DNA from: Escherichia coli
GTDB lineage: Bacteria; Pseudomonadota; Gammaproteobacteria; Enterobacterales; Enterobacteriaceae
Assembly: GCF_045037415.1 (NCBI RefSeq)
Contig: NZ_CP173438.1
Strand: one strand, 5' to 3'
DNA: 64,000 nt
Shown: positions 19,854 through 20,033 of the stretch, one piece after another
How the letters are laid out: every line of letters starts with the position of its first letter
Numbering within the stretch: the stretch's first letter is position 1
Program-made: the position numbers and the translations under genes
The notes under the pieces: model-generated
Told to the model about the DNA's origin: nothing
The model's input: the letters and a program-made list of their open reading frames with translations, nothing else
The model's database searches: none

Positions 19854-20033
19854 TTACCTCCAGCATTCTATATAAATAATAGAAATAAAAACCCCAATAC
19901 ATAGTGCATTGGCATGACCAAACATCAATGCCATTATACTCGCCTCTGTTAAATACTCGCTAGTTAATATGATAGGCACGCATGATATAACAATCCATAT
20001 GCTAATACATAAATACATCAGTATTTTTCTCAT
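19854..20033 (-). CDS. Hypothetical 59-aa small hydrophobic protein (two predicted TM segments) in the AT-rich remnant region
   Basis: Hand-translated MRKILMYLCISIWIVISCVPIILTSEYLTEASIMALMFGHANALCIGVFISIIYIECWR; AGGGA-like RBS about 7 nt upstream. Below the ORF-track size cutoff. May be spurious. Confidence 0.25.
   Translation of the reverse strand: MRKILMYLCISIWIVISCVPIILTSEYLTEASIMALMFGHANALCIGVFISIIYIECWR

What the first reader, a model, noticed from the sequence alone, without database searches (positions are those of the whole stretch)
19854..20033. Candidate 59-aa two-TM hydrophobic peptide in the remnant
The hand-translated ORF (MRKILMYLCISIWIVISCVPIILTSEYLTEASIMALMFGHANALCIGVFISIIYIECWR) has an RBS-like AGGGA upstream and two hydrophobic segments. 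It resembles small membrane toxins or prophage-encoded membrane peptides. It could equally be a chance ORF in AT-rich DNA.
Basis: seen in the sequence. Interest (0 to 1): 0.3.

Follow-up and report, generated by a model that had tools for sequence, protein, structure and literature searches.

The report
Hok-linked small prophage membrane protein gene
The 59-codon reading frame is most likely a real but uncharacterised prophage gene for a tiny two-helix membrane protein that always sits just upstream of a hok/sok toxin module; here it survives intact in a decayed prophage remnant of an E. coli chromosome, and nothing shows it is a toxin.

Summary
The ORF exists at 19854-20033 on the minus strand. 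It has an AGGGA Shine-Dalgarno 6 nt before the ATG and two hydrophobic segments. Alone it is not beyond chance. Full-length 59-aa homologues (41-44% identity, same start and stop, 22 invariant residues) occur in lambdoid phages and prophages of E. coli and Shigella. There hokD starts 261-273 nt downstream in 72 of 73 phage-type loci with enough sequence. Neutral-drift simulation kept the ORF in 0.5% of runs and never reached the observed protein similarity; dN/dS is about 0.17-0.45. The window copy lies in a heavily deleted prophage remnant at the ttcA (Rac) site, between a DUF977 fragment and a hok fragment, and is present in 1046 of 5426 complete E. coli genomes. It is less variable than its flanks (P about 0.02). 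No Pfam, PHROG, NCBIfam, PADLOC or PDB match was found, and no paper. No antisense RNA or structured leader was found, so a type I toxin reading is unsupported. AlphaFold predicts a helical hairpin. Verdict: a real, narrow, uncharacterised small membrane protein family of prophage origin. Function and expression are untested. Interest is modest.

The parts
19854..20033 (-). ORF59: 59-codon CDS plus stop (MRKILMYLCISIWIVISCVPIILTSEYLTEASIMALMFGHANALCIGVFISIIYIECWR). Predicted two-TM helical hairpin.
20040..20044 (-). Shine-Dalgarno-like AGGGA, 6 nt before the ATG. Phage-clade homologues have AGGAGG or AGGGGG at the equivalent place.
20108..20116 (-). Extended -10-like motif TGATATAAT, 75-83 nt upstream of the ATG. 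Speculative promoter. The other six lineages compared read TGACATAAT. No -35 match.
   Evidence: read from the sequence; variable column 20113; not reported by the consensus scan
19738..19799 (-). hokD C-terminal fragment (..VTKKDLHQVRI*GGQMEV..) with an in-frame stop, 80.6% identical to phage hokD. The hok N-terminus, leader and sok region are deleted. The hok-internal hairpin plus an A-run here mimics a plus-strand terminator.
20587..20807 (-). Fragment of the prophage replication-region gene (DUF977/LygF-like C-terminus, 73-75% identical to phage loci; PGAP calls the adjoining piece a DUF1627 pseudogene).
20820..21050 (+). C-terminal fragment of a tyrosine integrase next to ttcA, at the site where Rac is integrated in K-12.
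18865..19465 (+). Frameshifted ABC-3 (SitD-like) metal transporter permease pseudogene. It forms the other end of the remnant, next to uspF.

Best explanation
ORF59 is a genuine protein-coding gene of a narrow, uncharacterised family of 59-residue inner-membrane helical hairpin proteins. The family is carried by Rac-like and other lambdoid prophages of Escherichia and Shigella. In phages the gene lies in the accessory region between the replication genes and Q. It has a strong Shine-Dalgarno and ends about 90 nt before the start of the hok mRNA leader, 261-273 nt before the hokD ATG, so ORF59 and hok/sok travel as one cassette of about 0.7 kb. The window carries a divergent allele (41-44% protein identity to the phage type). 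That allele stayed intact while its prophage was deleted down to about 2.2 kb at the ttcA attachment site. The remnant is found in strains I recognise as phylogroup B2 (ST131, CFT073, UTI89, Nissle 1917). Shown here: the ORF, its SD, its conservation, the hok linkage, the remnant context and the predicted hairpin. Inferred: the protein inserts into the inner membrane, N-in/C-in for the window allele by the positive-inside rule. It would self-associate or bind a partner through its invariant polar residues (S17-C18-x-P20 in helix 1; G39 and N42 in helix 2; C-terminal E-x-W-R). It would act at the membrane as a phage accessory factor. My preferred reading (about 25%) is that it is made from the early-right transcript on induction and works with Hok to compromise the membrane and aid lysis or release. 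A superinfection-exclusion role is about as likely. Whether the relic copy in this window is still expressed is roughly even odds.
For: Homologues of exactly 59 aa with the same start and stop occur in 3 phage genomes, several plasmid or contig records and 79 viral contigs. There are 22 invariant residues, and substitutions are conservative. Seventy-one random substitutions kept an ORF in only 0.48% of 50,000 simulations. None reached the observed BLOSUM62 score (163 against 58 +/- 19, z = 5.5). dN is 0.42 and dS is 0.94-2.5. All other frames score far lower, and the antisense frame that is open in phages has 2 stops in the window. hokD starts 261-273 nt downstream in 72 of 73 phage-type loci with enough sequence, and the window allele is followed by a hok fragment. 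The Rfam sok/hok-leader model matches from 90 nt after the ORF stop (106.7 bits). The remnant is in 1046 of 5426 complete E. coli genomes, always at ttcA-uspF. Within it the ORF has 2 substitutions in 180 bp against 42 in 1030 bp of flank (Poisson P = 0.023), and both 1-bp indels lie outside it. The 301-bp core is at least 99% identical in 1037 of 1044 genomes, against 564 of 1046 for the 1201-bp stretch. AlphaFold2 predicts a hairpin with mean pLDDT 81.5. Hydropathy supports two TM segments in both clades. A prophage hok/sok in the same genome region is a working TA that aids phage release (PMC8621323).
Against: There is no evidence of transcription or translation. Current RefSeq/PGAP does not annotate the ORF in any genome examined. 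Only two clades exist, so the deep selection test rests on a single pairwise comparison. The codon-position bias alone is not significant (24/17/30, chi-square p = 0.17). All seven short-range substitutions seen are non-synonymous, though conservative. That fits weak recent constraint, and the low diversity affects both site classes. No sigma-70 consensus promoter was found next to the ORF in either clade. Several hok loci, such as those of the O157 strains, matched only the hok-leader part of the query, so hok does not appear to need this gene. The functional link to Hok is inferred from linkage only.
Confidence: 0.7

Rival explanations
1. Silent relic. The family is a real phage gene, but the copy in this window is not expressed and has no function in its host. 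It is intact only because the deletions that made the remnant happened to spare it and too little time has passed for a disabling mutation.
For: All neighbours in the remnant are pseudogenes or fragments. No consensus promoter was found. About 7 substitutions are expected in 180 bp across the sampled lineages, and few of those would create stops, so intactness alone is weak evidence. Both observed changes are non-synonymous. PGAP does not annotate it.
Against: Diversity in and around the ORF is lower than in the flanks (P = 0.023). Both indels fall outside the ORF. The SD and start are retained. At least 1043 genomes keep the region whole.
Confidence: 0.35
2. Type I toxin-antitoxin toxin. ORF59 would be a membrane-damaging peptide whose translation is held in check by a nearby antisense or divergent small RNA, as for Hok/Sok, TisB/IstR or Ldr/Rdl.
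For: It is small, hydrophobic and prophage-borne, and it lies next to another type I toxin. The size and two-helix layout recall GhoT/OrtT (my own recollection). Retention in a remnant could reflect addiction.
Against: No Rfam family reaches threshold. No promoter-plus-terminator pair for an antisense RNA was found in either clade. Neither the 5' region nor the antisense strand folds better than shuffles (z from -1.8 to +0.4). The SD is strong and not sequestered in a structure shared by the two clades. There is no similarity to Hok (no Pfam hit) or to GhoT (E = 0.67). There are no PADLOC hits.
Confidence: 0.12
3. Not a gene in any lineage. The similarity between the two clades would be residual DNA homology or a DNA/RNA-level element, with the ORF open in both by luck.
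For: An ORF of this size is expected by chance in AT-rich DNA. The codon-position bias is not significant on its own. Automatic pipelines often prefer the opposite strand or nothing.
Against: The probability of keeping the ORF after 71 substitutions is 0.005, and the protein similarity lies far above neutral expectation (0 of 50,000 simulations). Length, start and stop are identical, and an SD is present in both clades. There is no RNA structure signal.
Confidence: 0.05
4. The real gene is the antisense ORF that depositors annotate in phage and plasmid records ('hornerin', 85 aa; a 61-aa 'hypothetical protein'), and ORF59 is its shadow.
For: That frame has no stops in the phage clade, and annotators call it there.
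Against: In the window the same frame has 2 stops. Its cross-clade BLOSUM score is 62, against 163 for the sense frame. It has no PHROG match. Its length varies between records (61, 63 and 85 aa).
Confidence: 0.03

Closest known systems
Hok/Gef family type I toxins with Sok antisense RNA (hokD here; hokW-sokW of Sakai prophage Sp5, PMC8621323)
   Same: Small hydrophobic inner-membrane peptide encoded in the same accessory region of lambdoid prophages. ORF59 is physically linked to hokD in every phage-type locus, apart from IS insertions into hok itself.
   Different: No sequence similarity and no Pfam Hok_Gef hit. ORF59 has two predicted helices rather than one TM plus a periplasmic tail. It has no mok-like overlapping frame, no Sok-like RNA and no fold-back leader. 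hok loci also occur without ORF59.
GhoT / OrtT (57-aa two-TM membrane toxins of E. coli; recalled from memory)
   Same: Almost the same length and predicted two-helix hairpin architecture.
   Different: No GhoS-like neighbour. Toxicity of ORF59 is untested.
Class II holins and pinholins (two-TM phage lysis proteins, e.g. S21 68; recalled from memory)
   Same: Small phage-encoded two-TM proteins with polar residues inside the helices that drive oligomerisation.
   Different: ORF59 lies upstream of Q, not in the lysis cassette beside an endolysin. It has a single start and no dual-start motif. It is shorter. Fold search gave only non-specific hairpin matches.
Small superinfection-exclusion membrane proteins of phages (e.g. 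T4 Imm; recalled from memory)
   Same: Small two-helix inner-membrane protein encoded by a phage among accessory genes.
   Different: No sequence or specific fold similarity was found. Expression in the lysogen and any exclusion phenotype are untested.
DUF4212 / TIGR03647, small subunit of sodium:solute symporters
   Same: Two-TM proteins of about 80 aa. There is a weak profile match to the window allele over residues 4-56.
   Different: Scores of 13.9 and 14.5 bits are far below the cut-offs of 30 and 26. The phage-type allele does not match. There is no adjacent symporter gene.

Membership tests
Type I toxin-antitoxin toxin | Small (under about 60 aa) hydrophobic membrane peptide | tested here: met
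   59 aa, GRAVY 1.37, two hydrophobic segments; helical hairpin model
Type I toxin-antitoxin toxin | Cis-antisense or divergent small RNA antitoxin with its own promoter and terminator | tested here: inconclusive
   No Rfam match above threshold. No convincing promoter/terminator pair in either clade. The antisense strand folds no better than shuffles. Absence cannot be proven from sequence.
Type I toxin-antitoxin toxin | Structured 5' leader that sequesters the ribosome-binding site | tested here: not met
   Leader folds have z-scores from -1.2 to +0.4, and the structures are not shared between clades
Type I toxin-antitoxin toxin | Toxicity on overexpression, neutralised by the RNA | not testable with these tools
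   Needs experiment
Hok/Gef family (Pfam Hok_Gef) | Profile match to the family model | tested here: not met
   Pfam scan at E <= 1 returned only DUF4212 at 13.9 bits. The true hok fragment lies downstream at 19738-19799.
Class II holin / pinholin | Two transmembrane helices | tested here: met
Class II holin / pinholin | Encoded in the lysis cassette next to an endolysin, downstream of Q | tested here: not met
   In phage loci the gene lies upstream of hokD, rusA and Q
Class II holin / pinholin | Dual-start motif giving holin and antiholin | tested here: not met
   There is a single ATG, with an in-frame TAA five codons upstream in the window. The upstream GTG extension in phages is not shared.
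DUF4212 / TIGR03647 symporter small subunit | Score above the curated cut-off, and adjacency to a sodium:solute symporter gene | tested here: not met
   13.9 bits against 30 and 14.5 bits against 26; no symporter neighbour
Any curated protein family (Pfam, PHROGs, NCBIfam, PADLOC) or solved structure | Significant profile or sequence match | tested here: not met
   An exhaustive profile search of 1.84 billion representatives found only variants of the two clades.

The most novel reading that the evidence does not exclude
ORF59 is a functional third component of prophage hok/sok cassettes. It would be a membrane hairpin that cooperates with or gates Hok, or acts as an independent exclusion factor. 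In that reading its retention in the remnant, after hok/sok itself was deleted, reflects selection for a host benefit such as phage exclusion or membrane-stress tolerance.
Probability: 0.1. Interest if true: 0.55.

Novelty: new member of a known kind. Interest (0 to 1): 0.27.

Why it matters
If translated, this is a small membrane protein present in about half of the complete E. coli genomes searched. The remnant allele is in 1046 of 5426 genomes and the phage allele, at full coverage of the query, in 1550. Current reference annotation omits it or calls the wrong strand. Its strict linkage to hok/sok offers a simple, testable lead on what prophage hok cassettes do during induction. The remnant copy is carried by widely used and clinically important strains (Nissle 1917, CFT073, UTI89, ST131). 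Beyond that it is an ordinary example of an unannotated phage small ORF.

Tried and rejected
1. Family and structure libraries: Pfam, PHROGs, NCBIfam, PADLOC and PDB sequence searches gave nothing significant. The weak DUF4212/TIGR03647 hits were rejected as compositional.

2. Fold search of the AlphaFold model against BFVD and PDB gave only generic helical hairpins, none with E <= 0.001.

3. GhoT comparison showed no similarity.

4. Rfam on the window gave only sub-threshold STnc420 and sroD hits.

5. Promoter and terminator consensus scans were not informative. The window gave 12 sites against 7.1 +/- 2.3 expected, none placed sensibly for the ORF, and the phage locus gave zero sites, missing even the hok promoter. 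The terminator-like hairpin inside the ORF (19912-19894) is not conserved in the phage clade.

6. RNA folding of leaders and antisense strands gave no signal.

7. Search for intermediate or third clades found none. This covered tblastn of phages and plasmids, the exhaustive profile search and a sensitive blastn of E. coli genomes.

8. Search for an intact prophage carrying the window-type allele found none. All 10 contexts shown are the same remnant, and L014 is the remnant with a second prophage beside it.

9. K-12 Rac and Qin have no copy, so K-12 Ribo-seq data cannot help.

10. Literature searches by peptide sequence, locus genes, hok context and Ribo-seq of relevant strains found no description.

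11. A first diversity analysis of the phage loci was invalid because non-homologous flanks were aligned. It was redone on collinear loci.

12. I did not run the genome-contig scan. Its exact peptide patterns would not reach a clade at about 40% identity.

Full report
OBSERVATION. The reading frame is real. The plus-strand translation of those coordinates is full of stops. On the minus strand the ATG is preceded by AGGGA (20040-20044) with a 6-nt spacer, and an in-frame TAA lies five codons upstream, so the start is unambiguous. Residues 4-24 and 33-55 have mean Kyte-Doolittle hydropathy 2.5 and 2.0. By itself this is not remarkable. The surrounding 1,234 bp are 34% GC, and 64% of first-order Markov random sequences of that length and composition contain an ORF of at least 59 aa. 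T occupies codon position 2 in 28 of 59 codons, which makes such ORFs hydrophobic automatically.

CONTEXT. The window is an E. coli chromosome: ompN, uspF, then about 2.2 kb of remnant, then ttcA, dbpA, ynaL and zntB. In K-12 the Rac prophage occupies this position between ttcA and uspF. Here only fragments remain. They are a frameshifted ABC-3 (SitD-like) permease pseudogene (18865-19465, +), a hokD C-terminal fragment with an in-frame stop (19738-19799, -), ORF59, a DUF977/DUF1627 replication-region fragment (20587-20807, -) and an integrase C-terminal fragment (20820-21050, +). The same remnant is in 1046 of 5426 complete E. coli genomes, including ST131, CFT073, UTI89, APEC O1-type strains and Nissle 1917. 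I recognise these as phylogroup B2; no phylotyping was done here. All ten public contexts returned for the exact protein are this locus. One (L102) has an intact sitABCD-like cassette abutting the integrase fragment, which explains the permease pseudogene at the far end. PGAP annotates nothing at ORF59 in any genome inspected. Older GenBank submissions call it 'hypothetical protein' or 'uncharacterized membrane protein'.

HOMOLOGUES. tblastn found full-length matches at 41-44% identity in three E. coli phage genomes and in several small 'plasmid' records that are prophage pieces. A pattern scan of IMG/VR returned 79 more loci of this phage type. All encode exactly 59 residues with the same start and stop. 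The SD is strong (AGGAGG or AGGGGG), and 22 positions are invariant between the clades: W13, S17, C18, P20, I21, I22, T24, Y27, L36, F38, G39, N42, A43, L44, F49, I55, E56, W58, R59 and others. The phage type is present at full coverage of the 481-bp query in 1550 of 5426 complete E. coli genomes. An exhaustive profile search of 1.84 billion protein representatives returned only variants, truncations and fusions of these two clades. No intermediate alleles exist in E. coli genomes, phages or plasmids. K-12's Rac and Qin prophages lack the gene.

IS IT CODING? The two clades differ at 71 of 180 nucleotides without gaps. Differences by codon position are 24, 17 and 30, which has the expected direction but is not significant alone (chi-square p = 0.17). 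I applied 71 random substitutions with the observed spectrum to the phage sequence. The start, open frame and stop all survived in 0.48% of 50,000 trials. The BLOSUM62 score to the original averaged 58 +/- 19 with a maximum of 143, against 163 observed (z = 5.5). dN is 0.42 and dS is 0.94 (LWL85) to 2.5 (NG86). All five other frames score 4-64. The antisense frame that depositors annotate in phages ('hornerin', 85 aa; a 61-aa hypothetical protein) has two stops in the window. So the sense frame has been under protein-level constraint over the deep divergence.

Short-range data are weaker. Among 13 collinear phage-type haplotypes the ORF has five variable sites, all non-synonymous but conservative: A16V, V31I, M37I, H40Y and M53T. 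Among 19 remnant copies (12 haplotypes) it has two, M6V and A31V. Seven non-synonymous changes and no synonymous ones do not indicate strong recent purifying selection.

However, the remnant ORF is less variable than its flanks. It has 2 substitutions in 180 bp against 42 in 1030 bp (Poisson P = 0.023, Fisher p = 0.051), and the only two 1-bp indels lie outside it. At population scale the 301-bp core is at least 99% identical in 1037 of 1044 genomes, while only 564 of 1046 reach that over the 1201-bp stretch.

LINKAGE TO HOK/SOK. In 72 of the 73 phage-type loci with enough downstream sequence, hokD starts 261-273 nt after the ORF. The exception is at 1530 nt, and six contigs end too early to tell. 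In L002 and L006 an IS element has inserted at the hok start. The Rfam sok model, which here aligns in the sense of the hok leader, matches L004 4270-4441 at 106.7 bits (gathering score 59) and ends at the hok ATG. From my recollection of the hok mRNA 5' end, I infer that the hok transcript begins about 90 nt after the ORF59 stop. On that basis ORF59 is a separate gene immediately upstream of the hok promoter. The window allele is also followed by hok, but a deletion has removed the leader, sok and the N-terminal half, leaving the fragment 55 nt after the ORF stop. The reverse does not hold. Several hok loci, such as those of the O157 strains, matched only the hok-leader part of the query and not the ORF. 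The phages carrying ORF59 have cI/Cro(DicC)/cII/O/LygF(DUF977) early regions, with the cassette lying before rusA and Q.

STRUCTURE AND FUNCTION. AlphaFold2 on the 10-sequence alignment predicts two helices (2-24 and 30-57) joined by a 5-residue turn, with mean pLDDT 81.5. Foldseek against BFVD and PDB returns only generic hairpins. For the window allele the N-tail carries +2 and the loop SEYLTEAS carries -2, which suggests N-in/C-in. The phage allele is ambiguous. The invariant polar or small residues inside the helices (S17-C18-x-P20, G39, N42) are the kind that mediate helix packing, which is my inference.

No curated family, defence-system model or solved structure matches. I looked for the signatures of a type I toxin and found none. 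There was no Rfam hit, no promoter/terminator pair for an antisense RNA, and no leader or antisense structure better than shuffles (z from -1.8 to +0.4).

The closest experimentally studied neighbour is hokW-sokW of Sakai prophage Sp5. It is a functional type I TA that is induced with the prophage and helps phage release (PMC8621323). That paper does not mention an upstream gene. No paper containing either peptide, or describing the locus, was found.

CONCLUSION. The best reading (confidence about 0.7 for the core claims) is a real, narrow, uncharacterised family of 59-aa two-helix inner-membrane proteins that forms a cassette with hok/sok in lambdoid prophages. The window copy is a divergent allele preserved in a decayed prophage remnant at the ttcA site. 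The mechanism is inferred only. I favour a membrane-active accessory factor made on induction that acts alongside Hok, with exclusion about as likely, each at roughly 25%. Whether the relic copy is still expressed is about even odds. The toxin reading is possible but unsupported (about 0.12), and pure chance is unlikely (about 0.05). The finding is a modestly interesting annotation gap rather than a new kind of system.

Noticed in passing
window 19738-19799 (minus strand): Dead hokD fragment (VTKKDLHQVRI*GGQMEV). The hok leader, sok and the N-terminal half are deleted. Its internal hairpin GACCTCC...GGAGGTC, preceded by an A-run, looks like an intrinsic terminator on the plus strand (19745-19800) but is simply hok coding sequence.
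   Followed up: yes
window 18865-19465 (+); L102 72-3521: Frameshifted SitD-like ABC-3 permease pseudogene beside uspF. In CP028754.1 an intact ZnuA/ABC_tran/ABC-3/ABC-3 (sitABCD-like) cassette abuts the same integrase fragment. This suggests the ancestral ttcA-site prophage carried a sit operon at its end.
   Followed up: partly
L002/L003 3907-4164 (-), L004 3973-4158 (-): Deposited phage and plasmid annotations call the strand opposite to ORF59 ('hornerin', 85 aa; a 61-aa hypothetical protein, WP_341485279.1). That frame is broken in the window allele and scores poorly between clades, so it is probably a misannotation.
   Followed up: yes
window 20108-20116 (minus strand): Extended -10-like TGATATAAT, 75-83 nt upstream of the ORF. 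The window has T at 20113 (minus strand), while CFT073, UTI89, NGF1 and three other strains have C (TGACATAAT). This could change expression in the window's lineage.
   Followed up: no
L014 1-2882 (IMG/VR UViG_2684622582_000011): The same remnant with a second prophage integrated at ttcA right next to it. Homology to the window ends at 21151, inside the 5' end of ttcA. The att site therefore appears to stay active after the first prophage decayed.
   Followed up: partly
hits H1-H3 (e.g. NZ_CP069583.1 2612341-2614318): In a few genomes an IS1 element has inserted within the 1.2-kb stretch around the ORF. I did not determine whether it interrupts ORF59.
   Followed up: no
window 20186-20259: Sub-threshold Rfam matches to STnc420 (21.9 bits against 70) and sroD (20.3 bits against 50) in the AT-rich spacer upstream of the ORF. 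They are most likely chance.
   Followed up: no
L004 4602-4683 (+): Sub-threshold Rfam isrK-like match (26 bits against 50, E = 0.0026) with a terminator-like 3' hairpin just downstream of hokD in the phage-type loci.
   Followed up: no
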